Source: a virus
IMG/VR virus record: IMGVR_UViG_3300045988_147927
Location: 128,001 to 192,000 of that record
Length of the DNA stretch: 64,000 bases
Reading direction: 5' to 3' (one strand)
Shown: positions 24,013 through 64,000 of the stretch, piece by piece
Numbering within the stretch: position 1 is the stretch's first letter
How the letters are laid out: each line of letters opens with the position of its first letter
Notes under the pieces: model-generated
Told to the model about the DNA's origin: nothing
Databases searched by the model: none
The model's input: only the letters and a program-made list of their open reading frames with translations
Translations under genes and position numbers: made by a program

Positions 24013-27000
24013 ATGTATAGTATTAATAACTTTTTCCCTTTTATTGATAGGGCTGATTTTGTAAGGAATATTAGGGAAGTTCATAATATTTCTGAATTTT
24101 TTGGGTTTGAAGTTACAAAGACTGATTTTGATGTGGATACTAAGGGTGATAGTCATGTCTTAAAGGCATATAGGGTATTACCTAGTAACACACTATTTTT
24201 AATGGAAGTTCCTAGTGTTGTAAAAGATGTATTTAATGGTATTTATGGGCAGGAAGTTACTGTAGATATTATTGAATTAGATTATCAAGGAATTTCTAAT
24301 TTAATTAATTGTGAAGAAGTGAATGACAGTCTATGTGCTACTTTATATTGTAATGGTGGTTTTGATTCAGAGAATATTATTACAGATACTTTTATAAATG
24401 CTTGCGGTAATGGTATCGAAGTTCCTTATGATGTAGCAAAAGATTTCCTTATTCTAGAAGATTCTGATAGAAAGTCTAGGGATGTAAATATAAATGATTG
24501 GTTGTATGATAATGAGCATATTGATGAAAGTTATATTATGGAGTCAGCTGCTGATACATTACAACTGTTAAAAGATAGACGTAAGAATGGTAAAGATAAC
24601 TATGCTGAGGAAGTTAAAGGTAAGGATGCAATTTACACTTGGTTAGATGCTTATTTCTCTTTACCTGAAGGTGAGGAAATTAAAAGTGGTGGTAGGGAAG
24701 TTGTTCCACTTTTAATAGGGCCAACCGCCGTTTTCAAATCTGCTACAATTAAAGAATTGTGTAAAAAGTATAATTACAGAATGGTTGACTTTAGGGTTGC
24801 ATTTACTTCTAGGTTGGATTATAGTGGTCTATTTCAAATTGGTGAGGTAGAGGGTAAGAAGTATAGCTATGCTTGTCCTATGGAAGAATTGGTTGTATGT
24901 TCTGATGGTTTCCGTGAGTTTTGTAAGCAGTCTTATCAAAAATTAGAAGATATTTTACAAAAGGGGTATATTGAAAAAGATGTAGCCTCTGATGGTAATG
25001 TAGTTGAGAAAGAGCAACAAACCATATCAGATGAGCAGAGAGAGAAGATTGTAAAATTACAATTACAATATAAGGAGTACATGAAAACACCAGTACTATT
25101 CTTTGATGAAATTACACGTTGCTCTAATAAAGGTGTTAATGGTATTCTTGTACAATTATTGAATCAAAAAAGATTAAATGATATGACATTTAATGGGTGT
25201 AAATTTGTTGCCGCTACAAACTTAGATATTCAAAAGGGTTTAGAACGTGAAGAGTATAAGATGGAGTTAGAGACATTATATGATGTTAATACTGACCTTG
25301 ATGTTGCGTACTCCAATAGGTTCATTCCTTTGAAGGTATATCCTGAAGATGTTCAAGATAGATGGTTTGAGTGGGCAAAATCTTTAACATCTAAGAAAGG
25401 ATTTACAGATACACCTAATATACACCCAGTAGTATTAGAGTTCTTAGAGAAGAATAGGGATTATGTATATAATGATAAACCTGTAATAGATGCTATTGCT
25501 AATGGATTATCAGATAATGAACAAAGAACAGCAGTTTTCCCTAATTATCGTACATGGGATATGTTGTCTGAGTACTTGTATTCTATTGATGAGAGTGCTA
25601 GTATTGACAATGATGATAAAGATGGTGCAGAAGAGAAGTTATATAAGCGTAGATTAGTTGAGGGTTATATATCTAAGTGGTGTTGTGATAAGTTTTTACC
25701 TTTCTTAGAATCAAAAGGATATAAAGAATATGATTCTGTTAAAGAACCAGTAGAAGATACTGTAAGTGATTTTCTAGATACTGCTTTAGAGAATAATTCT
25801 CCTGCCATGTTAATCGGGCCGTCATCATTAGGTAAGACCAGCAGGGTTAAAGCATATATGAAAAAAGTTAAGTTACGTACTGGTTTAGAGCCAGTTTTAA
25901 TTAATGTAAACTTAGCTAGTAAAGATGCTGTTGACCTTATGGGTATGCCTGTTAAACAATCATTAACTGAATATGTTGGTGGTGGTATATTAAAGGGTTC
26001 AGGTTTAGAAGAGGTTTCTAAAGAATTACAGAATATTGTAAAAAGTGTTTCTAGTGATATCAAATATGGTATGACAGATTTATTGACTTTGAGGGCGCCA
26101 GACAAGACTGTTAAGGATAGGTTTATCACTGCACTTAAAGAGGGTAGAGAAGTTATTTTATTCTTTGATGAAGTTAATAGGGTTCAATCAAGTACTGTCA
26201 CTTCTGCCGTTTTTGAGGCTGTTTCAGATAGTAGGTTTGGTGGTGTAGATTTTTCTGAGTATAAAGACAGAGTAAAAATCATCGCAGCTTGTAATATGGC
26301 TTGGGAAGGTATGGAAGAAGATGGTGGTGGTTATGGTGATACTGGTACACTAGACCCTGCATTTGCCGCTAGGTTCTCTATTTATTGGAAAAAAGAATAT
26401 GATGAGCAGGATGTTAAGTCTTGGATTAGTTTTATGGAGTCTGAGAGAGAAGATGGTACTATTGATGGTACATTACTAGATTTCTTTAAAGATTTAGATA
26501 CTAAACAGGCTTTAAAAATTATGGCTAGTGTAGAAAAACGTACATTAGAAGATGCACAACCTTCTACTCGTAATATGTTACAGCTGTCAAAAGATATAAA
26601 ATCTATGCGTGGTAGGAATACATCTAAAGGTTTTATGCCGAAGGCTTTCAATGGTAAAATATTGTTTACTGACGATGTTCAAGCACAATATGAAAACTTG
26701 GTATTTGATAGGCAGTCTAATTCATTAGAAGTTCAAGTTCAAAAAACTATTAAGTTTATAGATTCATTGTTGTATGGTAAAGACTTATGGGAGTCTTTAT
26801 TAATAAATGATTCTGTAAAAGTAGGTGGTACTTCAATTTCTGCAAGTGATATTGTAGATAGTTTGGAGGCTTGTTCTTTAGATTTAAAACAGTACAACTT
26901 AAAGGCTATGTCATCTGATGATAGAGATGAGTGTAGTAATACTCTTGATTTGGTTCAGGATTTAGCAGATTTTATTAGGAGTTTAGATATCAAGACTTCT

Positions 27001-27528
27001 AATAAACGTGAAGATATTTTCAAAATGTATCTAGGTGAGAGTATTCTTGGTGAGTTTACAAAATACTTTAACAATACTTTTGGTACAGGATTAGACGAAG
27101 ATATTACTATAGAACAGTTAAAAGATGATACTTTGATTATTCCTTATATGAAGTTAGTACAAAGGAATTTCTCTAAGTTTAGTGGTAATACTGAAAAGAT
27201 TGTTAATTACTGTTTAGGTTTGTGTAAAGACTTTATGGGTGTTCATGGGACATCATTACCTAATAAACATTATGCTATGTTTTTGAGTGGTATTAAGGAT
27301 ATATTACCTAATGCTGATAATATGGTTCTTTTCTTGCGATTGTCTGGTGAAGATATTGAAAAGATGTATGAAATGGCAGAGGCTGTGGGTGATGATTGGA
27401 TTATAGATATCACAAGTGATTATGGTACTCGTGTTACTAAAGAATATATTGATAATATTCGAAAACTAATTAGTGATAGCAAAAAAACAAAGAAAAGTAT
27501 TAGTAAATCTAAGTTTACAGTTTTATAG
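24013..27528 (+). CDS. tandem AAA+ ATPase, MoxR/CobS/dynein-related (AAA_5-like)
   Basis: Module 1: LLIGPTAVFKS + VLFFDEITR. Module 2: MLIGPSSLGKTS + ILFFDEVNR. Confidence 0.7.
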   Translation: MYSINNFFPFIDRADFVRNIREVHNISEFFGFEVTKTDFDVDTKGDSHVLKAYRVLPSNTLFLMEVPSVVKDVFNGIYGQEVTVDIIELDYQGISNLINCEEVNDSLCATLYCNGGFDSENIITDTFINACGNGIEVPYDVAKDFLILEDSDRKSRDVNINDWLYDNEHIDESYIMESAADTLQLLKDRRKNGKDNYAEEVKGKDAIYTWLDAYFSLPEGEEIKSGGREVVPLLIGPTAVFKSATIKELCKKYNYRMVDFRVAFTSRLDYSGLFQIGEVEGKKYSYACPMEELVVCSDGFREFCKQSYQKLEDILQKGYIEKDVASDGNVVEKEQQTISDEQREKIVKLQLQYKEYMKTPVLFFDEITRCSNKGVNGILVQLLNQKRLNDMTFNGCKFVAATNLDIQKGLEREEYKMELETLYDVNTDLDVAYSNRFIPLKVYPEDVQDRWFEWAKSLTSKKGFTDTPNIHPVVLEFLEKNRDYVYNDKPVIDAIANGLSDNEQRTAVFPNYRTWDMLSEYLYSIDESASIDNDDKDGAEEKLYKRRLVEGYISKWCCDKFLPFLESKGYKEYDSVKEPVEDTVSDFLDTALENNSPAMLIGPSSLGKTSRVKAYMKKVKLRTGLEPVLINVNLASKDAVDLMGMPVKQSLTEYVGGGILKGSGLEEVSKELQNIVKSVSSDIKYGMTDLLTLRAPDKTVKDRFITALKEGREVILFFDEVNRVQSSTVTSAVFEAVSDSRFGGVDFSEYKDRVKIIAACNMAWEGMEEDGGGYGDTGTLDPAFAARFSIYWKKEYDEQDVKSWISFMESEREDGTIDGTLLDFFKDLDTKQALKIMASVEKRTLEDAQPSTRNMLQLSKDIKSMRGRNTSKGFMPKAFNGKILFTDDVQAQYENLVFDRQSNSLEVQVQKTIKFIDSLLYGKDLWESLLINDSVKVGGTSISASDIVDSLEACSLDLKQYNLKAMSSDDRDECSNTLDLVQDLADFIRSLDIKTSNKREDIFKMYLGESILGEFTKYFNNTFGTGLDEDITIEQLKDDTLIIPYMKLVQRNFSKFSGNTEKIVNYCLGLCKDFMGVHGTSLPNKHYAMFLSGIKDILPNADNMVLFLRLSGEDIEKMYEMAEAVGDDWIIDITSDYGTRVTKEYIDNIRKLISDSKKTKKSISKSKFTVL

Positions 27529-33033: not shown

Positions 33034-34860
33034 ATGTCAGAGGGGATAGATATTTATATTATGGGTAATTTAGAGAAACAATACTTATCAGATACGAGTG
33101 TTTTTGATAGGTCGCTGTATGAGAGTTATGAGCCTGATACAAAATTTGATGGTTCAAATAATGCAGTGTTGCGTATTATCCGAGGACCATTAGCAGAGTG
33201 GGATAAGTTAAATCGTAATGGTAGGTTATATTCTGAGAAGTTGTGGGATAGGGTGTTAGAAACACCGTATGTTAAAGAACAGCTCATGTATAATACACTT
33301 TTTGGTGAGGCTAATCACCCAGTAGATAGAATGGAAGTAGATTTTGAGAGGGTTTCTCATAGAATTGCTAAGATGTGGAAAGTGCCACAATCAAATCAAA
33401 TTTATGGTGAGATTCATATCTTGGATACTCCTTTTGGTCGGATTATCAATACATTGTATGAAGCTGGTGGTGTTATTGGATATTCATCAAGGGCTGGTGG
33501 TGCTTTACATCAACGTAAGGATTATATTGAAGTAGATGAAAATCAATATAATTTTGTTACATTTGATGCTGTTCCATTCCCGTCTGTACAATCTGCTAGA
33601 CCTAGTGATTTTGTAACAGAGGGTGCTGAAATTCAAAAACACGCTTTAACAAAAGATGTTCATAATGCTCTTTTTAAGATTATTAAAGAGTGTGATGAAA
33701 AAGACTTTAATAATATTAAGTCTTTTATAAATAGCATTGAGGGTTATGATTTAACACCTGAAAAGTTATTACTTGAAAGTGTTGAAAATATAACTTTTAA
33801 TAATGGTGATGAAGAAGTTATTGTCCGAGACACTATTGAGGACAATAAGGAAGAATCGCTTGTAGATACTTTACAAAGTACTTTACAGTCAGTTAAGGCT
33901 CAAAAACAATCTTTAGAGAAAGAGAATAGAGGTTTAAAAGATAGCTTAAATAATGCTTTAAATAAAATCTCAACTGTTCTACAGGATGCTAAAGATAAAG
34001 AGGTTGCAACACAAGATGAGATTTCAAATCTAAAAGACACTATTGCAAGAAAAGAAGTTAAAATCAATGAGTTGCAAGAAGAGATTGATATGTTACAAGA
34101 TGAGCTTGATGGTTTACAAACTGTCGAGGAGGCTTGTAAGGCTTTGAAGTATCAAAACTCTACTTTACTTAAAGAGGGTGTAGAGGATAACAATAGGGAA
34201 TTAGAATCGAAGTTATCTGTTAAAGAGGAAGAAAACAAATCTTTGTTGAAAGATAATAAAAATCTTTCAAAAGAAAAAGAAGAGTTACATTCTGAATTAA
34301 AAGAGGCTTATGGTGAGATTGCTGATACTGTTAAAGATATTAATAGTAAGGATGCTATTATTAAGGCACAACAAGATACTATTAATTCTTTAAAGAGTGA
34401 TGTTAAGTCTACACAAGAAGAATTAGATAAGGTAGATGAAGATTATCAAAGTGCTTTAGATAGACGTGATAATCAAATTGAGCAGTATGAGGAAAGAATT
34501 AAAGAGTTAGAAGATAAGATTAGGGAATTGAGTTCAGAGGTAGAAGATATCGATGAGTCATATTCAAAATCAAAATCATACACTAAATCTTTAAAAAATG
34601 ACTTAATTTCAGTTATTGCTGGTAATTATGGTTTAACAAATGAAAGTGTTAAAGCTAAGTTACCTGTAGGGTTTGGTAAGTCAGAAATTTATACTGTGTG
34701 TGAATCGATGAGTCGCAATAGTAGTAAAAATTTAATAAGCAATTCTATTGTAGATACTCAAATTGTTAATGAATCAACTAAAAACAGGGTTACTGATATT
34801 CATTCTAACAATAGGGGTAGTAGATTAAGTGAAATAATCTCTACAAATAGAAGAGGTTAG
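33034..34860 (+). CDS. prohead protease (T4 gp21/U9-like) fused to a coiled-coil scaffolding region
   Basis: LNRNGRLYSEKLW and LFGEANHP resemble gp21 motifs. About 300 aa of heptad-rich E/K/L sequence follows. Start is ambiguous (33034 or 33061). Confidence 0.6.
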   Translation: MSEGIDIYIMGNLEKQYLSDTSVFDRSLYESYEPDTKFDGSNNAVLRIIRGPLAEWDKLNRNGRLYSEKLWDRVLETPYVKEQLMYNTLFGEANHPVDRMEVDFERVSHRIAKMWKVPQSNQIYGEIHILDTPFGRIINTLYEAGGVIGYSSRAGGALHQRKDYIEVDENQYNFVTFDAVPFPSVQSARPSDFVTEGAEIQKHALTKDVHNALFKIIKECDEKDFNNIKSFINSIEGYDLTPEKLLLESVENITFNNGDEEVIVRDTIEDNKEESLVDTLQSTLQSVKAQKQSLEKENRGLKDSLNNALNKISTVLQDAKDKEVATQDEISNLKDTIARKEVKINELQEEIDMLQDELDGLQTVEEACKALKYQNSTLLKEGVEDNNRELESKLSVKEEENKSLLKDNKNLSKEKEELHSELKEAYGEIADTVKDINSKDAIIKAQQDTINSLKSDVKSTQEELDKVDEDYQSALDRRDNQIEQYEERIKELEDKIRELSSEVEDIDESYSKSKSYTKSLKNDLISVIAGNYGLTNESVKAKLPVGFGKSEIYTVCESMSRNSSKNLISNSIVDTQIVNESTKNRVTDIHSNNRGSRLSEIISTNRRG

Positions 34861-39366: not shown

Positions 39367-40143
39367 TTGGAGGGTATATTGATAGTGAAAGATATTTTAG
39401 CTAAAGATGGTATATTGTGTGGTATTCCTAGTGATAGGAGTTGTAATTTGATTGTATTGTTCTCTGGTGGATTTGATTCTACTGCATTATTACATATGGC
39501 AGTTAATACTAAGAAGAAATATAATACTATAAAAACAGTATATGCTTTGTATGTTAAAAGTAATCTATTAGATGAAGGGAAAGTTAAGTTAGAGGAAAAT
39601 CATGTAAAAAAGTTTATTTCTTATATTAATCAAGATGAGGAGATTGTAAAGTTAGTTACTTATGAGAGTTCATTTAGTGATTTAGAAGAGTATGCTTATA
39701 GTGAAAATTCATATGACTTAATATTTATTAATGCTATTAATTCAGTAGTACATATGATGGGTGGTGCTGATGTTAATATAGTATTGAATGGCTCATTAGA
39801 TGGAGATTCAAGGGTATATCATCTACCATATTATAAAAGTATGGTTGAAGGCTTCAATAAAGAGTATAGGGGTGTAGATGTGGTTATGATGTTCCCACTT
39901 ATGCAGATTAATAAACCTAGAATTATAGATTATTTACTCAACAACAATTTATATCAGTATTGTACTTGTTGTGAGAGTCCTAATAGTGATGTCTTTTGTA
40001 ATAGTTGTAAGGAGCATTTAAGGGCTTTATATGAATTATTACTTATCTATGATGTGTATGGTGATATTGAGCCTAAAGATGGAAATGAAGAGTTTGTTCG
40101 TGGTGAAATAAATAGGATACATGGGGTTGAGTCTGATGAGTGA
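39367..40143 (+). CDS. PP-loop ATPase, QueC-like
   Basis: VLFSGGFDSTALLH (SGGxDS). C-terminal Cys cluster YCTCCESPNSDVFCNSCKEHL. Alternative start GTG 39385. Confidence 0.55.
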   Translation: MEGILIVKDILAKDGILCGIPSDRSCNLIVLFSGGFDSTALLHMAVNTKKKYNTIKTVYALYVKSNLLDEGKVKLEENHVKKFISYINQDEEIVKLVTYESSFSDLEEYAYSENSYDLIFINAINSVVHMMGGADVNIVLNGSLDGDSRVYHLPYYKSMVEGFNKEYRGVDVVMMFPLMQINKPRIIDYLLNNNLYQYCTCCESPNSDVFCNSCKEHLRALYELLLIYDVYGDIEPKDGNEEFVRGEINRIHGVESDE

Positions 40144-42085
40144 TACTAACGATAAAAGACACTTATGGGGTGGTAAGGGTAAAAGAACATATAATAATGG
40201 TGTGATAGCTAAAAGATATTTTGAAGGTGAGCAACCTGAAGGATTTGTACTTGGAATGTTACCACGTACTGATGAGCAAAAGGCTAAAAGTAATGCTAAG
40301 AGGGTTAAAACTACAATAGAGAAGTACGGTGTTTCTAATGTAGCACAGTCTAAAGATGTGTATGAAAAGATGTTAGAGACAAATCTTAAAAAGTATGGTG
40401 TTGAGCATCCACAGACTCTTGAATCTCAAAAAGAAAAGGTAAAGAAAACAAATCTAGAGAGATATGGTACTACTAATGGTAAGGTGTTAAAACCAAAAGT
40501 AGATAAGCCTAAAAAAGAGAAAAAAGTAAAATTACCTAAAGTTAAAGATACTCGTAAAGGACATTACTATAATAATAGTATCATCACTAGAAAAATTAAA
40601 GAGGGTGATGTTATACCTGATGGGTTTGTTAGAGGAATGTTATTAAGTGATGAACTTAAAAAGAATAGGTCAGCTAAGGCTAAAGAGACATTTCTCAAAA
40701 AATATGGTGTAGATAACCCTGCTAAGTCTAAAGAGGTACTAGTTAAGATACAGAAAACAAATTTAGATAGGTATGGTGTTGAATGTTCTGCACAATCAGA
40801 AGTTGTTAAAGAAAAGATAAAAGCTACAAATCTTAAAAAATACGGTGTTGAGTATTCTTTTCAAGCAGAGGAAGTTAAGGATAAAATCAAAGCTACAAGT
40901 CTAGAGAGGTATGGTGTAGAAAATCCATCTAAGTCAGAAGTTATTAAGAGTAAGATTGTTGAATCTAATCGTAAGAATTTAGGTGTAGATTATCCTATGC
41001 AGTCTAAGGATGTGATGGATAAGTCTAGGGCAACTTCTTTTGAAAAGTATGGAACTGAGTATCCTAATCAGTCAGAAATTGTTAAATCTAAGATTGACGC
41101 TAGTACTTTAGAGCATTATGGTGTTAATCGTGCTTGTAAGTTAGATGAATTTAAGCAAAAAATCGTAGATACTAATAGAGAACGGTATGGTGTAGATTAT
41201 ACTTGTTTAATATATAGTGGTAAGTTAAAGGGTAATGACAGTAGTTACAACCGTTCTTTTGCTGAGTTATTAGATATTAATAACATTACATATGAGAGAG
41301 AGTTTTTATTACAAAAATATTCCTATGATTTTAAAGTAGGGAATACTTTGATTGAGATAGACCCCACTGCTACTCATAATACTTATTTCAGCCCTTATGG
41401 TGATAATAGAATTGATGTTAATTATCATAGAGATAAGACTAAGTTAGCTAAAGATAATGGATATAGTGTAATTCATATATTTGAATGGGATGATATTAAT
41501 AAAGTTATGCAATTATTGAAAAATAGGGTTACTGTATATGCTAGAAAATGTGAAGTAAGGATGGTTAGTGATGTAGATACTGGTAATTACTTAGATACAT
41601 ACCATTTACAGGGTACTTGTAGAGGACAGAAAATTAGATTAGGTCTATATTATGATAATCAATTAGTATCATTAATGACTTTTGGTAAATCACGTTTTAA
41701 TAAAAATTGTGAATATGAATTATTGAGATATTGTGCTAGTTACAATGTAGTAGGTGGTGCTGAGAAGTTATTTAAGTACTTTGTAGATAATTATAAACCT
41801 AGCAGCATTGTGTCATATTGTGATACATCAAAATTTAGTGGTAAGGTGTATGATACTTTGAGTTTTGAGTTTATTAAGACAAACAAACCTAGAAAGCATT
41901 GGTATAGTATGAAAGAGAAACGTCATATTACTGATGGATTATTATTAAGTCAGGGATATGATAGATTATTTAAAGAGAATCATGGTAAAGGCACTTCTAA
42001 TGAAGAGTTAATTCTTAGTAGAGGGTATTTACCTGTATATGATTGTGGTCAATCAACTTATATTTGGAGAAGTGATAATGTCTAG
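40136..42085 (+). CDS. free-standing homing-endonuclease-like protein with KYGV repeats
   Basis: YNNG..(x)..P(E/D)GFV.GM motifs x2. At least 8 repeats of about 32 aa (KYGV-NP-QS-EV-K-K-T). PD-(D/E)XK-like core YSYDFKVGNTLIEIDPTATHN. Conserved ~170-aa C-terminal domain. Confidence 0.5.
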   Translation: MSDTNDKRHLWGGKGKRTYNNGVIAKRYFEGEQPEGFVLGMLPRTDEQKAKSNAKRVKTTIEKYGVSNVAQSKDVYEKMLETNLKKYGVEHPQTLESQKEKVKKTNLERYGTTNGKVLKPKVDKPKKEKKVKLPKVKDTRKGHYYNNSIITRKIKEGDVIPDGFVRGMLLSDELKKNRSAKAKETFLKKYGVDNPAKSKEVLVKIQKTNLDRYGVECSAQSEVVKEKIKATNLKKYGVEYSFQAEEVKDKIKATSLERYGVENPSKSEVIKSKIVESNRKNLGVDYPMQSKDVMDKSRATSFEKYGTEYPNQSEIVKSKIDASTLEHYGVNRACKLDEFKQKIVDTNRERYGVDYTCLIYSGKLKGNDSSYNRSFAELLDINNITYEREFLLQKYSYDFKVGNTLIEIDPTATHNTYFSPYGDNRIDVNYHRDKTKLAKDNGYSVIHIFEWDDINKVMQLLKNRVTVYARKCEVRMVSDVDTGNYLDTYHLQGTCRGQKIRLGLYYDNQLVSLMTFGKSRFNKNCEYELLRYCASYNVVGGAEKLFKYFVDNYKPSSIVSYCDTSKFSGKVYDTLSFEFIKTNKPRKHWYSMKEKRHITDGLLLSQGYDRLFKENHGKGTSNEELILSRGYLPVYDCGQSTYIWRSDNV

Positions 42086-56474: not shown

Positions 56475-58304
56475 ATGAATAAGAAAACAATGTTAACAGC
56501 TTTAATTATTTCATCTATGGCAATGAGTGTAGGTGCTGTAGATAATGTTGCTGGTACAGGTAATGGTATCGCTTATGGTAGTGGTAGTCATGCACCTAAA
56601 GTAGAAAATATTGCTATTGGTGGTAATGCATCTATCAGCTATTCCAATGGTAATAGTAATGCTACAGGTGATATTGTAGTTGGTAAAGATGCTAATATCA
56701 ATAACTATGCTAGTCAAGGTGGTAGTGTTGCTATTGGTAAAAATGCTAAAGTAGAGAATATGGCAGGTGGTCAGGAGGCAAGTTTTGCTTTTGGACAAAC
56801 TTCATATAGTGGTGGTATGTTTTCATCTTCACGTATTCCAGCAGACCCAACAAAGGTAGTAGGAAGTGTGGTTGTTGGTGATAATACGTTTGCTCGTACT
56901 GGTTCTACTATGGTTGGTTCACACAATTATAAAGGTGAGTTAGGTGATACTACAGTTGATACTGCCACTACTCGTAAAGATAATTTAGGTGTGTATGCTA
57001 CTACTATTGGTGCTAATAGTTTTAGTAATGGTGCTTTTATTACTAATACTGGTACATATAACATTGTGTCTAGTGATTATAAAGGTGGTCGCTCAGATGA
57101 TATGTTTGGTATCTCTATTAAGAATATGGGCGCTACTGTAAATGGTTCATTCAATAGTATTGAGTCTAAGACTGCTGATGGGTATGGTGCAGGTATTGCT
57201 AATACTGTAACAGGTGTTGCCAATCGTACTTTCAATACGAATGGTACTTTAGTGTATGGTGCAGGTAATGTGGTAACTAATTCGATTGGTTCATTAAGTG
57301 GATTCCCTACAAGTGGTGGTAATTCTGCTAAGGATTTTTCTAATAGATTACGTGATGGTGTAAGGAGTTCTCATGGTGCTGGTGCTACTATGGTTTTTGG
57401 TGGTGGTAATGTCGCTGATTATACAAAACGTACCTCTATTATTGGTGTTAATAATGTAGTGGCTGGTGATAGTACACATAGTAGTGAAGATAATTTTGTA
57501 GTTGGTTATCAAAATACAGGTGTTAGTTTGAATGGTACTACTGTTATTGGTTCTAATCGTTCTGTAGCTAATACCAATAATACTGTAATTATTGGTAATG
57601 TGGTAGATAGTACAGGTTCTATTACTGCAAGTAATGCTGTAGCTATTGGTACTGATACTAATGTTTTGTTTGATGGTGGTGTGGCTTTAGGTTCTAAATC
57701 ATATTCTAATCGTAGTGCTAATGAAAATGGTGGGTATGATGTAGTTACTAAGATGTCATCTAGTGATACTTCTAGTGTATGGAAACCTACAGATAGTGCT
57801 GTTTCAGTAGGTAATGGTGTTGAAGTAACTCGTAGAATTACTTCTGTTGCCGCTGGTTTAGAAGATACAGATGCTGTTAATGTGGCTCAATTAAAGCGTG
57901 TTGTTGATATTGTTGGTGATAATTCATTACAAGAATCAAAATCTTACACTGATAAAGAAGTAGGTAAAGTAGGGGCATCATCTAATGCATTGGCAGGGTT
58001 AAAATTCCTAGATTATAACCCTAATGATAAGTGGTCTTTTGCCACAAGTTTAGGTCATTATCAAGGTTCTAGTGCAGTAGCTTTGGGTGTTGCATATCAA
58101 CCTAATGCGAATGTCATGTTACATGGTGGTGTAGTGCTAGATGGAAAATCATCTTATAATATTGGTGCTAGTTTTAAAGTTGGTAATGGTGGCAATAAGG
58201 TTGTAGATACAAATGCCTATGGTATGATTAAAAAACTACAGGAAGATAATGAACAGTTGCGAAAAGAATTAGAAGATATTAAGTTCATGTTAAATAATAA
58301 GTAG
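56475..58304 (+). CDS. YadA-like trimeric autotransporter adhesin (no SLH)
   Basis: RBS aaaaggag. Signal peptide MNKKTMLTALIISSMAMSVGAV. Head repeats. Neck EDTDAVNVAQLK. Anchor ALAGLKFLDY...NIGASFKVG. Short C-terminal coiled coil. Confidence 0.85.
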   Translation: MNKKTMLTALIISSMAMSVGAVDNVAGTGNGIAYGSGSHAPKVENIAIGGNASISYSNGNSNATGDIVVGKDANINNYASQGGSVAIGKNAKVENMAGGQEASFAFGQTSYSGGMFSSSRIPADPTKVVGSVVVGDNTFARTGSTMVGSHNYKGELGDTTVDTATTRKDNLGVYATTIGANSFSNGAFITNTGTYNIVSSDYKGGRSDDMFGISIKNMGATVNGSFNSIESKTADGYGAGIANTVTGVANRTFNTNGTLVYGAGNVVTNSIGSLSGFPTSGGNSAKDFSNRLRDGVRSSHGAGATMVFGGGNVADYTKRTSIIGVNNVVAGDSTHSSEDNFVVGYQNTGVSLNGTTVIGSNRSVANTNNTVIIGNVVDSTGSITASNAVAIGTDTNVLFDGGVALGSKSYSNRSANENGGYDVVTKMSSSDTSSVWKPTDSAVSVGNGVEVTRRITSVAAGLEDTDAVNVAQLKRVVDIVGDNSLQESKSYTDKEVGKVGASSNALAGLKFLDYNPNDKWSFATSLGHYQGSSAVALGVAYQPNANVMLHGGVVLDGKSSYNIGASFKVGNGGNKVVDTNAYGMIKKLQEDNEQLRKELEDIKFMLNNK

Positions 58305-59162: not shown

Positions 59163-60524
59163 ATGTATATAATCTGTAGATTTACTAATACTGAAGGAAT
59201 AGAAAATTTTAATAAGGTTAATGCTGATAGAGGTATTTATATTCATTCAGATATGGTTGAATATAACCTAGATACTGGTGTTTATAGATGTAGTGGATTA
59301 AATGCCTATAATACTGTTGACACTTCGTCTGATGAAAGGTATGACTATTGGCTAGGTATGCCTAGATTTGTTAATAATAAAGTAAGATATGTTGCAACTA
59401 TAAAATTTACAACAAAAAATTTAGGGATTGAAGAGCTTGAAAAGATATTTTCTCAGAAAATATCTCCAAAGACTAAGAGTCTTAAATATCCTAAACAAGA
59501 TGTTTTTGCAAACCGTTATTTGAGAGTTGTTGGTGGTGATAATCCGAGTTATCCAGTATACGTTGTTTCAAAAGGCAGATATGAAAAGACTTTAGCAAAG
59601 ACTGTTAGAGTTTTGAATAGGATGAATGTTCCTCATTTTGTTGTTGTTGAACCTGATGAAGTTGGTTTGTATAGAGAGTCATTCAATGCTCTTGGGTATA
59701 CTTATAGTACTATACTTGAGCTAGATATGTCTTATAAAGACAATTATGCTACTCTTGATGATAGAGGTAATACTATTGGTAAAGGTCCTGGTGGTGCTAG
59801 GAACTTTTGCTGGGATGATTCTATTAAGAGAGGGTTTTCTTATCACTGGGTTTTAGATGATAATATTGAGTGGTTTAGGTATTTTACAGATAATTTTCAA
59901 AGAAAAACTCTTAGTGGTGTTTGTTTTAAAGCAGCTGAGGATTTTATCACTAGATTTAAGAATGTAGCAATGGGTTCTCTTAATTATAGTATGTTTTTAG
60001 ATGCTAGAAATACTGCATATCCATATATAAAAAATACTAGAATGTATTCTATTATTTTCATTAGGAATGATATACCTTATAGGTGGAGAGGTAGGTATAA
60101 TGAAGATACTATAATATCTTTGGATTGTTTGTCAGATGGTTGGTGTACTATTCAGATGTGTGCTTTTACTGCTGACAAGTTAGCTACACAACGTATAGGT
60201 GGTGGCAACTCATATATGTTTTATTTCAAAGAAGGTACTGATAATAAATCTCAAATGTTAGTTGATGTTTATCCTCAATATGCTCAAAAGGTTTTTAAGT
60301 TTAACAGAATACATCATTATGTTGACTATAGTATCTTTAATGGTAGGCTTGAATATAAAGATGATTTTGATATATCTAAGTTATCTAAGGTTGATAATTA
60401 TGGTATGAAGATGGTAAAAATACCTAAAGAGTGGGATTACACTGAAAAAGATTCAAGGGAATACATAGAATCTCATATTGATGAGTGTGAAGTTGTTGAT
60501 ATGTTTGAAGGATTTAGTGTTTGA
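59163..60524 (+). CDS. hypothetical protein (possible GT-A-like transferase; weak)
   Basis: PVYVVSKGR strand followed later by WVLDDNIEWF (DxD-like). Assignment not verified. Confidence 0.3.
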   Translation: MYIICRFTNTEGIENFNKVNADRGIYIHSDMVEYNLDTGVYRCSGLNAYNTVDTSSDERYDYWLGMPRFVNNKVRYVATIKFTTKNLGIEELEKIFSQKISPKTKSLKYPKQDVFANRYLRVVGGDNPSYPVYVVSKGRYEKTLAKTVRVLNRMNVPHFVVVEPDEVGLYRESFNALGYTYSTILELDMSYKDNYATLDDRGNTIGKGPGGARNFCWDDSIKRGFSYHWVLDDNIEWFRYFTDNFQRKTLSGVCFKAAEDFITRFKNVAMGSLNYSMFLDARNTAYPYIKNTRMYSIIFIRNDIPYRWRGRYNEDTIISLDCLSDGWCTIQMCAFTADKLATQRIGGGNSYMFYFKEGTDNKSQMLVDVYPQYAQKVFKFNRIHHYVDYSIFNGRLEYKDDFDISKLSKVDNYGMKMVKIPKEWDYTEKDSREYIESHIDECEVVDMFEGFSV

Positions 60525-60615: not shown

Positions 60616-61158
60616 ATGTCAGATTCTAGACTTGGTTTTTACAAAATACTTGGTAACATTGATGGTAATGATACAATACTTATGTCTTTAGCAAAAGTAA
60701 AATATACTAAAGATGAAAATACATATTTAATGTTAAAGAAGGATACTTTATATGAGGAGTTGTTGTTTGATTTATCAGACTCATATGATGTTTTAGAAAT
60801 TTCAGAGATTGAGTATTATGGTGATTTAGATAAAGAATTTAAATTAGAAGTTTCTAATTATTTTGGTTCTGCATCATCAACATATATTTCTATTGGTAGT
60901 GTACATAGAAGGTTAATTGGCAAATCTTTCGATGTTACCTTTAATAGTGGGTATCACAGTATATACTTTGAATTTTTAGATTATAATAATGTTAAAATTC
61001 ATTATCGTAAATTACATTTAGATGTTAATTATGGAGATACTGAGATAGGTTTGGATGATTTAGAAATTATTTTAAGAGCCATTAGGTTATTTAACATGGG
61101 TATACGTAAAGAAGTTTCTAGTGATAGTATTAGAAGAGCTTTTCATAATGAGGGATAA
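60616..61158 (+). CDS. hypothetical protein
   Basis: RBS gtgaggtg. Confidence 0.4.
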   Translation: MSDSRLGFYKILGNIDGNDTILMSLAKVKYTKDENTYLMLKKDTLYEELLFDLSDSYDVLEISEIEYYGDLDKEFKLEVSNYFGSASSTYISIGSVHRRLIGKSFDVTFNSGYHSIYFEFLDYNNVKIHYRKLHLDVNYGDTEIGLDDLEIILRAIRLFNMGIRKEVSSDSIRRAFHNEG

Positions 61159-61159
61159 A

Positions 61160-62062
61160 ATGATTCATTATAGGAATGGTAATGCAGATATAACATTATA
61201 TGATGATGGTACTAGGATTATTGAGACTGATGATAGTATTCTCAGATTAGATACGCCTCTTAACATTGATATAAGGGTATCTAAAAGATGTCCTTATGGA
61301 TATAATGCTGACACAGGTGTTAGTGTTTGTAGTTTTTGTCATGAATCAGCTACTACAGATGGTGATGTGTGTGATTATGATAAATTGTTAGATGTTATCA
61401 TGGCTGCTGATTTACCAAAAGGTACTGAGTTGGCAATAGGTGCAAATCAAATATCTGATGATTTTATAGAGTTTGTTAAGGATTTGTATAATCTAGGTTT
61501 TATAGTTAATGTAACTGTTAATGAGAGATATATTGCAGATGGTGGTGATAGGCATCTTAAAAAGGTTATGCAGTATATCAAGGGGTTAGGTATTAGTTTT
61601 CGTACATTAGATGGTAGTATGGGTTTACCTGAATGGATATCAGATTATAGTAATACTGTTGTTCATGTGATATGTGGTATTGATAGTCTTAGGGATGTGT
61701 GTAAGTTGCATAAAAAATATCGTAAAGTACTTGTTCTAGGTGAGAAAGATTTTGGGTTTAATGCTAATAAAGTAGACCTAACTTCTAATTCTCATATTGA
61801 ATGGGATACACATATTATGAAATTGACTAAGTTGTTTGATATAGTTTCTTTTGATAATTTAGCTTTAGAGCAGTTACACATTAAAGATAAAATCTCTAAA
61901 GAGGAGTATCAGGCTTTTTATCAAGGTGAGCATTCAATGTATATTAATGCTGTTGATGAGTATTTTGCACCTAGTAGTAGAATAATGGATGTTATTAAGA
62001 AGTTTGATGAGATTAGTTTACGTGAATATTTTAAAATGAAGGAGAACATGATATGCGATTAG
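61160..62062 (+). CDS. Cys-cluster protein, possible non-canonical radical-SAM-like enzyme
   Basis: ATG 61160 after gaggga. SKRCPYGYNADTGVSVCSFCHES gives CX12CX2C. Confidence 0.35.
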   Translation: MIHYRNGNADITLYDDGTRIIETDDSILRLDTPLNIDIRVSKRCPYGYNADTGVSVCSFCHESATTDGDVCDYDKLLDVIMAADLPKGTELAIGANQISDDFIEFVKDLYNLGFIVNVTVNERYIADGGDRHLKKVMQYIKGLGISFRTLDGSMGLPEWISDYSNTVVHVICGIDSLRDVCKLHKKYRKVLVLGEKDFGFNANKVDLTSNSHIEWDTHIMKLTKLFDIVSFDNLALEQLHIKDKISKEEYQAFYQGEHSMYINAVDEYFAPSSRIMDVIKKFDEISLREYFKMKENMICD

Positions 62063-62841
62063 TTAGAAATGGTGTATTTGAGACAAATAGTTCTTCTGCC
62101 CATTCTTTGGCTTATAAGAATACAGTCTTGCGTGATTATGATTATAAACCAAGCAAAGATTTGTGTTTATCTATTAAGGAATTGAGGCTAACAGAAAAAC
62201 CAAAGGAATATGAAATGTATTCATATATGCCGTTATATTTTGATGAGTATGGATGGGGGTTCGATATATTGACTTCCCCAGCAGAAAAGTTAAGTTATTT
62301 AATGTCATCTGTTTATCCGTATAAAACTTGGGGAATTGTTAAAGAAGACCAATTTTTCAAGCAAGTGATTCAATGGTTAAGTGAATTGGATATTGTGGTA
62401 GAATTGCCAGAGGAATATGGTGAATCTTCTGAAGTTGATGCCTATGTTGACCATCAATCTTGGAATGTCGTTACAAAGGATATGTTTCAAACAAAAGAAG
62501 ATTTGTTGACATATCTATTTAATAACGACATTGTAATCTATATTGAAAATGATAATTCTGATGTCATGCAAAACTGGGTTGATACACCAAAAGAAGAAAT
62601 TGATTATCGTCAAGCAATGTATTGGTGTGTTTCACAAAGTAAATGTGTAAGACGAAAATCTTGGGATGATGGTGTGTATTTGATTTATGATGTTGTAGAG
62701 GATGATGAAAATCATTATAGATTGGATTATTTATTGGTAGACAACAAAATTAAAACCAATTATAAACCGACTGAAGATGATAAAAATGCAAATGACTGGA
62801 CAGTTGCTTTGGAGGTATCTAAATATGAAATTAATTCGTAA
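62053..62841 (+). CDS. ETNSSSAHS-family protein fused to a C-terminal DUF2829 (Tad2-like) domain
   Basis: N-terminal MRLVRNGVFETNSSSAHSLAYKN, FDEYGWGFDIL, VDHQS, IENDN. C-terminal YRQAMYWCVSQSKCVRRKSWDDGVYL...KPTEDDKNANDWTV matches the DUF2829 pattern. Confidence 0.5.
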   Translation: MRLVRNGVFETNSSSAHSLAYKNTVLRDYDYKPSKDLCLSIKELRLTEKPKEYEMYSYMPLYFDEYGWGFDILTSPAEKLSYLMSSVYPYKTWGIVKEDQFFKQVIQWLSELDIVVELPEEYGESSEVDAYVDHQSWNVVTKDMFQTKEDLLTYLFNNDIVIYIENDNSDVMQNWVDTPKEEIDYRQAMYWCVSQSKCVRRKSWDDGVYLIYDVVEDDENHYRLDYLLVDNKIKTNYKPTEDDKNANDWTVALEVSKYEINS

Positions 62842-63373
62842 TGGTGTGTTTGAAACAAATTCTAGTTCCGCACATTCTTTAGCTTATAAGAATGAAGATG
62901 TTTTACGAGGTGTTTATGAAAGTAATGGTGTTAAAGATTTTAAAGATGGTAGATATAGACTAACTGAAATACCTGAAAAGTATAAGAATTATGTATTACA
63001 CCCTAGATTTGATGAGTATGGGTGGGGATTTGACATATTAGAAACACCTGATGAAAAATTAAGTTATATCTTAACTAATGAGTATGAAGATGTAAAATCT
63101 TTACAGAAGGTATATAATGGTAAGTTTTTTGTAACTATTGTTAAGTGGTTGCAAGAGTTTGGTATAAATGTTAGCATTAAAAAATTACAATTAGATGAGT
63201 GGGGATACGTTGATGGGTATATTGACCATGAGAGTAAATTTGTAATTCCAAAGGATATTTTTCATGATAAAGAGGATTTAATCACTTATCTGTTCAATGA
63301 TGATATTGTTGTGTACATTGAGAATGATAATGAAGAGTGTATGCAGTGGCTAAAGAAGAGTAATAAAAAGTGA
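62825..63373 (+). CDS. ETNSSSAHS-family protein (paralog, no DUF2829)
   Basis: RBS ggaggt. MKLIRNGVFETNSSSAHSLAYKN, FDEYGWGFDIL, IDHES, IENDN. Confidence 0.5.
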   Translation: MKLIRNGVFETNSSSAHSLAYKNEDVLRGVYESNGVKDFKDGRYRLTEIPEKYKNYVLHPRFDEYGWGFDILETPDEKLSYILTNEYEDVKSLQKVYNGKFFVTIVKWLQEFGINVSIKKLQLDEWGYVDGYIDHESKFVIPKDIFHDKEDLITYLFNDDIVVYIENDNEECMQWLKKSNKK

Positions 63374-63393: not shown

Positions 63394-64000
63394 ATGAAAG
63401 CGTTAGTGTTACTTAGGGGTTGTCCAGGAAGTGGTAAATCGACTCTTGTTAATGATTTAGGTTTGGGACAGTATACATTGTGTCCAGATAAACTTAGATT
63501 GATGTATGGTTCTTCTGTAATGTTAGAAGATGGTACTTATGGTATTGACCAATCATGTAATAAGGAAGTGTTTGATACTTTTTATAAGATGTTGGAGTAT
63601 CGTATGAGTAAAGGTGAGTTTACTGTTATAGATGCTACACACTGTTCCTCTGTAAAAACTGTAAAAAAACAAATTTCTGAATATAGAAAATTAGCTAAGA
63701 GATATAATTATAGAATTTATCAACATGATATGACTACAGATTTATTAAAGATATCTGAGCAGAATGAAATGCGTAATGGTACATATTCTTTTGTACCACA
63801 TTATATTGTTGATAAGATGTTACGTGTTATGGAAAGTATGGATACGTTACATCGAGAGATTAAAAAGATAGATTTAGAGGAATTTATCAATTCGTACAAT
63901 ACTGATACTATATGTAATGATACTCAATATGATAAAGTAAAAGTAATAGGTGATATACATTCTTGTAATAGTGTTCTTAAAGATGCTTTAGAAGATTTTA
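63394..64000 (+). CDS. polynucleotide kinase (P-loop) + metallophosphoesterase, Pnkp-like; 3'-truncated by the window end
   Basis: RBS tggagg. LRGCPGSGKSTL Walker A, VIDATH, then VKVIGDIHS starting a phosphoesterase domain. Open to position 64000. Not in the ORF track. Confidence 0.6.
   Translation, partial: MKALVLLRGCPGSGKSTLVNDLGLGQYTLCPDKLRLMYGSSVMLEDGTYGIDQSCNKEVFDTFYKMLEYRMSKGEFTVIDATHCSSVKTVKKQISEYRKLAKRYNYRIYQHDMTTDLLKISEQNEMRNGTYSFVPHYIVDKMLRVMESMDTLHREIKKIDLEEFINSYNTDTICNDTQYDKVKVIGDIHSCNSVLKDALEDF

What the first reader, a model, noticed from the sequence alone, without database searches (positions are those of the whole stretch)
62053..63373. Paralogous 'ETNSSSAHS' proteins, one fused to a DUF2829/Tad2-like domain
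Two adjacent genes share an almost identical N-terminus (M(R/K)L(V/I)RNGVFETNSSSAHSLAYKN), plus FDEYGWGFDIL, a (V/I)DH(Q/E)S motif and YIENDN. That is an enzyme-like set of invariant polar residues that I cannot assign to a known family. The first copy alone carries a C-terminal segment (from about 62590) matching the DUF2829 pattern (K.VRRKSW..G.Y ... P...D..A.DW.V), the fold of the Thoeris anti-defence sponge Tad2. A putative hydrolase fused to a signal-nucleotide-binding domain, next to an RNA-repair-type Pnkp gene, is a plausible counter-defence module.
Basis: partly seen in the sequence, partly recalled or inferred. Interest (0 to 1): 0.65.

Follow-up and report, generated by a model that had tools for sequence, protein, structure and literature searches.

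The report
Phage radical-SAM module with Tad2 fusion
Two neighbouring phage genes encode copies of an unstudied protein that begins with an invariant 14-residue tag and always sits beside a radical-SAM enzyme gene. One copy also carries a domain of the kind phages use to soak up bacterial alarm molecules, so this looks like an undescribed, widespread phage module, possibly for host takeover or counter-defence.

Summary
ORF A (62053-62841, 262 aa) and ORF B (62825-63373, 182 aa) are paralogues: 53% identity, E 6e-54. ORF A residues 184-251 match Pfam PF11195 (Tad2-like/DUF2829) above the curated cut-off.

The shared domain matches nothing in Pfam, NCBIfam, PADLOC or PDB sequences, and Foldseek finds no fold match. 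Its only hit is phrog_28997, of unknown function.

The gene just upstream (61160-62062) is a radical SAM (rSAM) enzyme, overlapping ORF A by 10 nt. The pairing is general:
- More than 6,000 protein clusters belong to the family.
- 28 of 30 divergent phage lineages fetched through the tag motif have this rSAM within 6 kb.
- 80 of 80 loci fetched through the rSAM have at least one tag-bearing gene.
- Fusion proteins exist in both orders.

Loci carry 1-10 proteins whose only common element is the N-terminal box [IV]-R-x3-F-E-T-N-S-S-S-x-H-[SA].

Best reading (about 0.4): the rSAM recognises this box and probably modifies it, maturing a diversifying protein set. ORF A adds a nucleotide-binding domain. 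The main rival is that the box is a docking or cofactor-binding module. A counter-defence role is plausible but untested, and "hydrolase" is unsupported.

The parts
61160..62062 (+). Radical SAM enzyme (300 aa) of a phage-specific family. Its cluster motif carries an insertion, Cx12Cx2C (RCPYGYNADTGVSVCSFCHE), and its end overlaps the start of ORF A by 10 nt.
   Evidence: phrog_16999 'Fe-S oxidoreductase', E 5e-22. It scores 6e-131 against an HMM built from 7 sequences that included the window protein and its near-identical L001 copy, so that score is partly self-scoring. Independent support for membership: 29-58% identity to the 19 other members of alignment A4, in which the three Cys are invariant across 20 members. 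Homologues pass Pfam PF04055; the window protein itself gets no PF04055 hit. The true start, MIHYRNGN at 61160, is taken from the called gene in L001.
62053..62841 (+). ORF A, 262 aa: N-box, ET1 core domain (residues 1 to about 175) and a C-terminal Tad2-like domain.
62062..62106 (+). N-box of ORF A (residues 4-18, VRNGVFETNSSSAHS).
   Evidence: Motif logos over 358 and 69 unique sequences. It lies within the only region shared between the ET1 and ET2 families (hhalign, 27 columns, probability 99.3%).
62602..62805 (+). DUF2829/Tad2-like domain of ORF A (residues 184-251).
   Evidence: PF11195 at E 5.5e-7, 30.5 bits, above the cut-off of 25. phrog_1048 at E 4.4e-5. Motifs RRKSW and ANDW align with KGWNG and ANDWVIV of HgmTad2/AcrIIA7, via a stand-alone relative.
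62825..63373 (+). ORF B, 182 aa: N-box plus ET1 core only. Its start overlaps the end of ORF A by 17 nt.
62834..62878 (+). N-box of ORF B (residues 4-18, IRNGVFETNSSSAHS).
60616..61158 (+). 180-aa protein of unknown function directly upstream of the rSAM gene. It is conserved in the closest relatives and may belong to the same operon. It has no N-box.
63394..64000 (+). N-terminal P-loop kinase part of a Pnkp/RNA-ligase-type repair enzyme, cut by the window end. It is a neighbour, not a conserved part of the module.
   Evidence: AAA_33 at E 1.5e-14; phrog_8238 'RNA ligase' at E 2.5e-54. The 754-aa orthologue carries AAA_33, Metallophos and RNA_lig_T4_1.

Best explanation
ORF A and ORF B belong to a large, uncharacterised phage protein family defined by an invariant N-terminal box, [IV]-R-x-x-x-F-E-T-N-S-S-S-x-H-[SA]. 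I call the whole set 'ET' proteins. The family works together with the dedicated single-cluster radical SAM enzyme encoded just upstream (61160-62062).

Shown: the three genes form a tightly overlapping operon. The rSAM/ET pairing is near-universal in both directions and is confirmed by natural fusion proteins. The N-box is the only element common to otherwise unalignable paralogues.

Inferred: the rSAM recognises the N-box, perhaps through its own family-specific N-terminal beta-hairpin extension (YxNGN..DGT). It then performs a radical-mediated post-translational change within the box, most simply H-atom abstraction at one of the invariant Ser, Asn or Thr residues. That would mature or arm all the ET proteins of the locus.

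The ET1 core of ORF A and ORF B has a second conserved polar set (W67, K78, Y81, D134-H135, N167-D168-N169 in ORF B numbering). This probably forms a ligand-binding or catalytic pocket. ORF A alone adds a DUF2829/Tad2-type domain that would bind a nucleotide-derived small molecule. The diversifying paralogue arrays and the Tad2-like fusion suggest host takeover or counter-defence, but that role is not shown.

The confidence of 0.4 is for the inferred mechanism (the rSAM modifies the box). The shown part, a functional rSAM/ET module to which ORF A and ORF B belong, I hold at about 0.95.
For: Operon:
- The rSAM stop overlaps the ORF A start by 10 nt, and ORF A overlaps ORF B by 17 nt. Each start has a Shine-Dalgarno sequence.

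Family size:
- A profile search found 2,182 50%-identity clusters at E<=1e-3 and more than 6,360 90%-identity clusters. All are unnamed and have no Pfam annotation.

Linkage, fetching through the N-box:
- The rSAM gene lies on the same strand within 6 kb in 70 of 77 IMG/VR loci, which is 28 of 30 lineages; the two exceptions are truncated contigs.
- The same holds in 66 of 79 loci from genome collections.

Linkage, fetching through the rSAM motif SFDNL[AG][IL]xQ, which is independent of the box:
- 80 of 80 loci carry at least one ET gene.

Fusions:
- Salmonella phage Arash gp146c is ET::rSAM.
- L045/L046 are rSAM::ET, with the box internal.
- A 461-aa BFVD 'Radical_SAM domain' protein is the best non-self structural match to the ET1 model.

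Box invariance:
- R 357/358, F 358/358, E 357, T 357, N 357, S-S 358, S 354, H 356.
- In the set fetched through the rSAM, 67 of 69 sequences have exact FETNSSS.

Modularity of the box:
- hhalign of ET1 against the short ET2 family aligns only the first 27 columns (probability 99.3%).
- Loci carry 1-10 box proteins with at least four unrelated C-terminal types.
- A degenerate paralogue in close relatives has lost the DH and NDN motifs but keeps the box.

Other support:
- AlphaFold models the core at pLDDT above 90 but leaves residues 1-40 at about 50-60, which fits a flexible arm.
- The rSAM profile is nearest to peptide and protein maturases and other small-substrate rSAMs, though only through the generic core.
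- Established precedents for one rSAM serving several tagged substrates are RiPP maturases, glycyl-radical activases and anSME with sulfatases.
Against: - No modification has been observed. The chemistry and the target residue are guesses.
- The rSAM has no SPASM or auxiliary cluster, which most known peptide-modifying rSAMs possess.
- Enzyme-substrate fusions in both orders are unusual. Such fusions are more typical of subunits or redox partners.
- Arash, where the domain is fused, has FATNSSS (E to A). The invariant Glu is therefore not indispensable there, which suits a docking role as well as it suits a substrate role.
- An invariant strand-turn-strand rich in Ser, Thr and His could equally be a phosphate- or cofactor-binding loop that AlphaFold cannot place without its ligand.
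- ET detection by HMM is partly driven by the motif itself, so the stated invariance is somewhat inflated.
Confidence: 0.4

Rival explanations
1. The N-box is a docking or cofactor-binding module, not a substrate. ET proteins would be accessory subunits of the rSAM. They could be dedicated electron donors, like flavodoxin in TYW1-type fusions, or interchangeable adaptors that present different ligands to the rSAM. For ORF A, that ligand would be whatever the Tad2-like domain binds.
For: Fusions occur in both orders, as is typical for subunits and redox partners. rSAM clusters need a one-electron donor; that is established biochemistry. The short ET2 family shows local profile similarity to Clostridium beijerinckii flavodoxin beta3-beta4/90s loop: hhalign probability 69%, 48 columns, score 33.3 against 15.0 +/- 2.6 (maximum 24.7) for block shuffles. 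The GE[YF]GWG loop of ET1 aligns with flavodoxin GSYGWG. Weak Foldseek hits include flavodoxin-like folds such as WrbA, NQO2 and the KatE C-domain. The Ser/Thr-rich box after a beta-strand resembles a phosphate-binding loop. Arash tolerates E to A in the box.
Against: None of the similarities is significant at database level. No PF00258 hit was listed in any Pfam scan of ET proteins. The PDB hits have E 0.27-0.9 and Foldseek gives E above 0.3. In the global hhalign the N-box does not align with the FMN P-loop (probability 15%). The spacing in ET1 between the box and the GWG loop is about 22-50 residues, too short for flavodoxin topology. A single electron donor would not explain up to 10 paralogues per rSAM, nor the extra DH/NDN motifs. 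The window itself has no ET2 gene.
Confidence: 0.3
2. The ET1 domain is an autonomous hydrolase acting on an immune signalling nucleotide. In ORF A it is fused to a Tad2-type sponge that captures the substrate. The rSAM neighbour contributes to a common pathway or is unrelated to the chemistry.
For: The Tad2-like domain is real. ET1 has conserved E, H, D-H and N-D-N residues that could bind metal. Relatives carry a stand-alone DUF2829 gene beside the ET genes (L014 7747-7968) and a Sequestin-family gene within about 9 kb (L001). The phage therefore invests in signal sponges.
Against: No hydrolase family or fold is detected by any search. The conserved element across the family is the box, not the DH/NDN motifs, which many paralogues lack. 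The near-obligate rSAM linkage and the fusions are left unexplained. Among the members examined, the Tad2-like fusion was seen only in the window's own clade. Only about half of the gcADPR-contacting positions of HgmTad2 are retained (hand alignment; bioRxiv 10.1101/2023.11.15.567273).
Confidence: 0.15
3. The N-box is a capsid-targeting and prohead-protease cleavage signal, like the one on T4 internal proteins, with cleavage after the Glu of V-F-E. It would mark a set of proteins packaged and injected with the DNA.
For: Arrays of paralogues share a short N-terminal segment and have variable bodies, and the box contains a hydrophobic-x-Glu motif. Both resemble T4 internal proteins; this comparison rests on my own knowledge. 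The window encodes a head maturation protease (33034-34860).
Against: This model does not explain the obligate rSAM linkage or the fusions. In L045 the box lies inside a fusion protein. Residues after the putative cut (TNSSSxHS) are as invariant as those before it. Arash Gp146 is absent from a permissive 116-protein virion proteome (PMC10585845).
Confidence: 0.03

Closest known systems
Tad2 / DUF2829 (PF11195) phage sponge proteins (SPO1 Tad2; HgmTad2 = AcrIIA7)
   Same: The C-terminal 70 residues of ORF A pass the Pfam model. They keep the two signature segments: (K/R)xxW near the start and AxDW at the end.
   Different: Known Tad2 proteins are stand-alone tetramers of about 90-105 aa. Here the domain is the tail of a 262-aa protein. 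The positions equivalent to N22/G23 of HgmTad2 are Asp-Asp, W87 is Tyr and T92 is Asp, so ligand specificity may differ. No binding data exist.
phrog_28997 (Microcystis phage Ma-LMM01 gp130 family, unknown function)
   Same: This is the same family as the ET1 domain. gp130 matches at E 5e-115, canonical members at 1e-10 to 1e-22 and ORF B at 8e-7. gp130 lies two genes from the rSAM gp128.
   Different: It is a name only, with no function, structure or literature. The PHROG does not capture the other box-bearing types or the link to the rSAM.
Radical SAM maturases with dedicated tagged protein or peptide substrates (anSME-sulfatase, glycyl-radical activases, RiPP rSAM maturases with multiple precursors, His-Xaa-Ser system)
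   Same: One rSAM gene sits next to one to many genes that share a short, strictly conserved sequence element and have variable remainders.
   Different: There is no SPASM or auxiliary cluster and no recognisable RRE. The 'substrates' are full-size folded proteins of 90-330 aa. The conserved element is an N-terminal FETNSSS box with no Cys or Gly target. The system is phage-borne. Modification is not demonstrated.
Flavodoxin-rSAM pairs and fusions (for example eukaryotic TYW1)
   Same: A small acidic alpha/beta protein is encoded with, or fused to, an rSAM. There is local similarity to the flavodoxin 90s loop.
   Different: No Pfam flavodoxin match. The box does not align with the FMN phosphate loop. 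The topology and length do not fit, and there are many paralogues per rSAM.
T4-type internal proteins with capsid targeting sequence
   Same: Diversified paralogues share only a short N-terminal segment.
   Different: ET proteins show obligate rSAM linkage and fusions, and the fused form is absent from the Arash virion proteome.

Membership tests
Tad2-like / DUF2829 (PF11195) | Match to the family HMM above the curated gathering score | tested here: met
   ORF A residues 184-251 match model positions 2-72 of 73 at E 5.5e-7 and 30.5 bits, against a cut-off of 25. ORF B has no match.
Tad2-like / DUF2829 (PF11195) | Conservation of the gcADPR-contacting residues defined in HgmTad2 (W21, N22, G23, W87, L88, S90, T92, D93) | tested here: inconclusive
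   I aligned by hand through a stand-alone relative to PDB 8kbi, using the residues listed in bioRxiv 10.1101/2023.11.15.567273. W21 is W, S90 is T, D93 is D and W87 is Y. N22 is D, G23 is D, L88 is K and T92 is D.
Tad2-like / DUF2829 (PF11195) | Stand-alone homotetramer of about 90-105 aa that sequesters Thoeris or CBASS signals | not testable with these tools
   The domain is fused to a 175-residue N-domain. Oligomeric state and ligand binding need experiments.
Radical SAM superfamily (gene 61160-62062) | Three-Cys [4Fe-4S] motif (canonical CxxxCxxC) and a match to PF04055 | tested here: met
   The three Cys are invariant in 20 family members; most have CxxxCxxC, while the window and L007 have Cx12Cx2C. 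Five homologues pass PF04055 at 30-51 bits against a cut-off of 29.5. The window protein itself is below detection in Pfam. Its family membership rests on 29-58% identity to the other 19 members of alignment A4. Its E 6e-131 against the family HMM is partly self-scoring, because that HMM included the window sequence.
SPASM/twitch peptide-maturase rSAMs | C-terminal auxiliary Fe-S cluster domain with extra conserved Cys | tested here: not met
   No conserved Cys outside the three cluster ligands. NCBIfam hits cover only the N-terminal core, far below the cut-offs.
Flavodoxin (PF00258) | Family HMM match, plus an FMN phosphate loop T/S-x-T-G-x-T after beta1 and a 90s aromatic loop | tested here: not met
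   No PF00258 hit was listed in any Pfam scan of ET proteins. hhalign of ET1 against flavodoxin gives probability 16%. ET2 against flavodoxin gives 69% locally but 15% globally, with the box not aligned to the P-loop.
Known hydrolase or phosphoesterase families (2H, metallophosphoesterase, HD, MBL and others, as implied by 'putative hydrolase') | Any profile or fold match to such a family | tested here: not met
   No match in Pfam, NCBIfam, PADLOC or PDB sequence searches, and none by Foldseek against PDB for either AlphaFold model.
rSAM-linked N-box ('ET') family, defined here | N-terminal [IV]-R-x3-F-E-T-N-S-S-S-x-H-[SA] box, plus an rSAM of the SFDNLAIEQL family within a few kb on the same strand | tested here: met
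   Both ORF A and ORF B carry the exact box, and the rSAM overlaps ORF A.

The most novel reading that the evidence does not exclude
This would be a widespread, previously unrecognised phage system. One dedicated radical SAM enzyme installs a post-translational modification on an invariant N-terminal FETNSSS tag, and thereby arms a rapidly diversifying arsenal of 1-10 effector proteins per genome. That arsenal includes a Tad2-type signal sponge, as in ORF A, and is used against host immunity or for host takeover. It would be the first radical-SAM-dependent protein maturation pathway in viruses.
Probability: 0.2. Interest if true: 0.85.

Novelty: new variant of a known kind. Interest (0 to 1): 0.68.

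Why it matters
If the reading is right, thousands of large phages carry a self-contained radical-SAM module whose partner proteins share one of the most strictly conserved short motifs seen in viral proteins. These phages include Lak megaphages, Microcystis phages and many gut and rumen phages. None of this is annotated or described.

The module would add a new substrate or partner class to radical SAM enzymology. It would also link that chemistry to a Tad2-type nucleotide-binding domain, pointing to a new way for phages to handle host signalling molecules.

Even without a known function, the box gives a precise, testable handle: a peptide, an enzyme and an expected mass change. It also gives a simple rule for annotating several thousand 'hypothetical' phage genes. 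Cultured carriers exist for experiments, namely the Ma-LMM01 group and Salmonella phage Arash.

Tried and rejected
1. Sequence assignment of the N-domain. Pfam, NCBIfam, PADLOC and PDB searches, with single sequences and with a 58-member profile, found nothing. PHROGs gave only an unknown-function family.

2. Fold assignment. I made two AlphaFold models (pLDDT 74 and 82.6). Foldseek against PDB gave no hit with E below 0.3. BFVD returned only a near-identical uncharacterised protein and an rSAM fusion.

3. Cultured relatives of the window. No DNA or protein match in INPHARED phages for ORF A or for 12 kb of the window. The exact ORF A protein is not on record.

4. Flavodoxin homology. I tested it with profiles and shuffles. 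There is local similarity only, so it is not established.

5. Capsid-targeting signal idea. Rejected on the Arash virion proteome and on the rSAM fusions.

6. Motif resemblances considered from memory and dropped, because motif order or fold did not fit and no search supported them: 2H phosphoesterase (HxS/T), HAD, SGNH, PP-loop, Toprim, RNase H-like, Ntn-hydrolase or pyruvoyl autoprocessing, and glycyl-radical motifs.

7. A third conserved partner gene. Clustering of all flank ORFs found none shared by more than 5 of 30 lineages.

8. Other domain fusions. I scanned ten long N-box proteins and found no Pfam domain.

9. Literature. No paper contains FETNSSS/ETNSSS, 'phage radical SAM' phrases or relevant rSAM anti-defence work.

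10. The query was a consensus-like sequence that I composed. It is not a natural protein.
Full report
**1. What is in the sequence**

- The region is part of a single-strand gene run in a low-GC (about 31%) phage genome.
- ORF A runs 62053-62841 (262 aa).
- ORF B is listed from 62777. All homologues begin MKLIRNG, and a GGAGG lies 9 nt upstream of ATG 62825, so ORF B is 62825-63373 (182 aa).
- Of 21 identical residues in the first 25 codons, 8 use different codons, including AGT/TCT serine switches. The identity is therefore maintained by selection on the protein.
- Pfam places ORF A residues 184-251 in PF11195 (Tad2-like, formerly DUF2829) at E 5.5e-7 and 30.5 bits, against a cut-off of 25. 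ORF B lacks this domain.

**2. The shared domain is unassigned**

- It has no Pfam or NCBIfam match, no PADLOC match and no PDB sequence match. This holds for the single proteins and for a 58-member profile.
- Its only hit is phrog_28997, which has no known function.
- Two AlphaFold models were made, with mean pLDDT 74 (30-sequence alignment) and 82.6 (111-sequence alignment). Neither found a fold match in the PDB; the best Foldseek E-value was 0.35.
- In the better model the core (residues 41-170) has pLDDT mostly above 90. The most conserved part, residues 1-40, stays at about 50-60.

**3. The family is large, and the key context was missed**

- A profile search over 1.84 billion representative proteins found 2,182 clusters at E<=1e-3.
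- The word-indexed search found more than 6,360 clusters at 90% identity. All are 'hypothetical'.
- In the first distant contexts I looked up, the gene sat next to a protein of about 300 aa, annotated as radical SAM in three of the five contexts and unannotated in the other two.
- These proteins are mutually homologous. They are also homologous to the window gene 61160-62062, which phrog_16999 calls 'Fe-S oxidoreductase'.
- Canonical members have CxxxCxxC and pass PF04055.
- The window protein has a 9-residue insertion, giving Cx12Cx2C, and a deviant GGE-equivalent motif (AIGANQ). All three Cys are invariant across the family.
- The end of the rSAM gene overlaps the ORF A start by 10 nt, and ORF A overlaps ORF B by 17 nt. 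The three genes therefore form one tightly coupled operon.

**4. How strong is the linkage?**

- I fetched 77 IMG/VR loci through the peptide pattern FETNSSSxH and scanned six-frame ORFs with family HMMs. The rSAM lies on the same strand within 6 kb in 70 loci.
- Collapsed at 45% identity, that is 28 of 30 lineages. The two exceptions are contigs cut close to the gene.
- In one-genome-per-species collections only 193 stretches match, almost all on MAG contigs. Of the 79 kept loci, 66 have the rSAM, and most of the rest are truncated.
- For the reciprocal test I fetched 80 loci through the rSAM motif SFDNL[AG][IL]xQ, which is independent of the box. All 80 have at least one box-bearing ORF nearby.
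- Among deposited phage genome records, box proteins and close rSAM homologues occur in the same sets: the cultured Microcystis Ma-LMM01 group and the metagenome-assembled Lak megaphages.
- Fusion proteins exist in both orders. Salmonella phage Arash gp146c, annotated 'methyltransferase', is ET::rSAM. L045/L046 encode rSAM::ET. A 461-aa BFVD 'Radical_SAM domain' protein is the best non-self structural match to my model.
- No third gene family is shared by more than 5 of the 30 lineages.

**5. The N-terminal box is the common denominator**

- Loci carry 1-10 ORFs that hit the family HMM.
- They fall into at least four body types:
  - ET1, the type of ORF A and ORF B, with motifs GE[FY]GW, KLSYL, GYIDHQS and IDNDNH.
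  - ET2, a short and very acidic type of 92-158 aa that ends in VAFGYYGxD.
  - Types of about 160 and 260 aa with INHQ or IDHA motifs.
  - A type of 200-330 aa with a C-terminal Cys motif.
- hhalign of ET1 against ET2 aligns only the first 27 columns (probability 99.3%, E 4e-20).
- Across 358 unique sequences the box is [IV]-R-x-[GNS]-[VTI]-F-E-T-N-S-S-S-x-H-[SA], with 354-358 of 358 at each fixed position.
- In the set fetched through the rSAM, which avoids pattern ascertainment, 67 of 69 sequences have exact FETNSSS, and R and H are present in 69 of 69.
- A degenerate third paralogue in the 65-70 kb relatives has lost the DH and NDN motifs but keeps the box.
- One caveat applies. HMM detection is partly driven by the box, so box-less relatives would be missed.

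**6. Interpretation**

- The one-to-many relation, the modular box, its near-absolute conservation over nine consecutive positions and its poor docking in the AlphaFold model fit one picture best. The box is the element that the rSAM recognises.
- My preferred mechanism, at about 0.4, is that the box is the site of a radical-mediated post-translational modification that matures all the box proteins of a locus.
- The rSAM has a family-specific, invariant N-terminal beta-hairpin extension (YxNGN..DGT). It could serve as the recognition element. This is inference.
- The main rival, at about 0.3, is that the box docks on the rSAM or binds a phosphate-containing cofactor. ET proteins would then be subunits, redox partners or adaptors.
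- Several points favour that rival:
  - The fusions occur in both orders.
  - Arash has an E-to-A change in the box.
  - ET2 has a local similarity to flavodoxin: hhalign probability 69% over 48 columns, score 33.3 against a shuffle mean of 15.0 +/- 2.6 and maximum of 24.7.
- That similarity is not significant at database level and does not include the box (global probability 15%).
- For ET1 the similarity shrinks to the G-x-Y-G-W-G loop, and the window has no ET2 gene.

**7. The Tad2-like domain**

- Its two signature segments align with HgmTad2/AcrIIA7 through a stand-alone relative. RRKSW-DD corresponds to KGW-NG, and T-E-D-D-K-N-A-N-D-W corresponds to S-Q-T-D-M-L-A-N-D-W.
- Of the eight gcADPR-contacting residues reported for HgmTad2 (bioRxiv 10.1101/2023.11.15.567273), about four are conserved or conservatively replaced. 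The phosphate-contacting N22/G23 are Asp-Asp.
- The domain very likely binds some nucleotide-derived ligand. The identity of that ligand is open.
- Among the family members examined, the fusion was seen only in the window's clade.
- Ten relatives also have a stand-alone 73-aa DUF2829 gene just downstream (L014 7747-7968).
- A relative carries a Sequestin-family gene within about 9 kb (L001).
- A counter-defence role is therefore reasonable but rests on association only.

**8.

- 'Hydrolase' is not supported by any search.
- Adjacency to the Pnkp/RNA-ligase gene holds only for the nearest relatives seen (L001, L002). In the 65-70 kb relatives a cytosine methyltransferase-like gene follows instead.
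- Pnkp-like kinases recur near the module in only 4 of 30 lineages.
- The verdict is 'partly supported'.

**9. Novelty**

- The ET family, the other box-bearing types and their link to an rSAM are absent from Pfam-A (2025), NCBIfam (2026), PADLOC and the PDB.
- They are also absent from the searchable literature. That library does not hold most subscription-journal papers.
- The general principle of an rSAM with dedicated tagged partners is known. I therefore file this as a new variant of a known kind, with an unclassified partner family.
- The more radical reading is given separately at probability 0.2: an rSAM-armed, diversifying effector arsenal in viruses.

**10. Limits**

- There is no experimental evidence for modification, cofactor binding, ligand binding or any phenotype.
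- Only 6 kb flanks were examined.
- The host of this phage was not determined.

Noticed in passing
window 59163-60524 (+); L001 5500-6663: A 453-aa TET-associated glycosyltransferase (PF20691 E 3.8e-34; phrog_842 beta-glucosyl-HMC-alpha-glucosyltransferase) lies two genes upstream of the rSAM. This hints that the phage has glycosylated hydroxymethyl-pyrimidine DNA. In the close relative L001 this stretch instead holds an IS605 OrfB/TnpB (Cas12f-like) gene and no TAGT gene is called.
   Followed up: partly
window 56475-58304 (+): A 609-aa protein with a signal-like N-terminus and a YadA-type stalk and anchor (YadA_stalk and YadA_anchor in the L001 orthologue). This is a trimeric autotransporter adhesin encoded inside a large phage genome.
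   Followed up: no
window 63394-64000 (+); L001 10571-12835: The downstream gene is a single-chain RNA repair enzyme. The orthologue is 754 aa with a P-loop kinase (AAA_33), a metallophosphatase and a T4 Rnl1-type ligase. That is Pnkp and RNA ligase in one polypeptide.
   Followed up: partly
L001 18583-18810: A 75-aa Sequestin-family (PF21825) gene lies about 8 kb downstream of the ORF B orthologue in the 204-kb relative. This region is beyond the window end.
   Followed up: no
L014 7747-7968, and 9 other close relatives: A stand-alone 73-aa DUF2829/Tad2-like gene lies just downstream of the ET genes, in loci whose ORF A orthologue also has the fused domain. These loci therefore carry two Tad2-like domains.
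   Followed up: partly
L081, L098 and L107 (for example L081 1393-10732): Ten paralogous genes in about 9 kb all start with MKTIR..VFETNSSS.H and have different bodies. This is the largest array seen.
   Followed up: partly
L155 79-1023, L151 5995-6690, L133 6662-7648: A further N-box protein type has a C-terminal Cys cluster (C..YF..GCL.[DE]C.CG[FM]) and lies directly upstream of the rSAM. It may bind a metal or an Fe-S cluster.
   Followed up: no
window 61286-61345 (rSAM residues 43-62); L007 2472-3374: The rSAM cluster loop carries a 9-residue insertion, giving Cx12Cx2C instead of CxxxCxxC. The usual GGGNP motif reads GANQ. The same variant occurs in an unrelated lineage (L007).
   Followed up: partly
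L077 995-2146; L059 7710-8528; L009 2067-2867: Sporadic neighbours of the module include a cysteine desulfurase-like gene and a Thg1-like tRNA-His guanylyltransferase gene, each in 3 of 30 lineages and each named only by my reading of the sequence, and a gene annotated 'histidyl tRNA synthetase' in Ma-LMM01 (gp131). Together they give a faint, recurrent hint of Fe-S assembly and tRNA functions.
   Followed up: no
window 9766-11328, 24013-27528, 40121-42085: Three other notable genes: a phrog_850 'RNA-binding protein' (E 5e-113); a 1171-aa ATPase with a 'porphyrin biosynthesis'-type segment (phrog_1297 and phrog_249); and a 654-aa HNH homing endonuclease. No tRNA genes were found in the 64-kb window.
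   Followed up: no
L044, L076, L082 (full 12-kb loci): A few ET genes have no rSAM within 6 kb, although sister phages of the same lineages do. The rSAM may sit elsewhere in these genomes or may have been lost.
   Followed up: no
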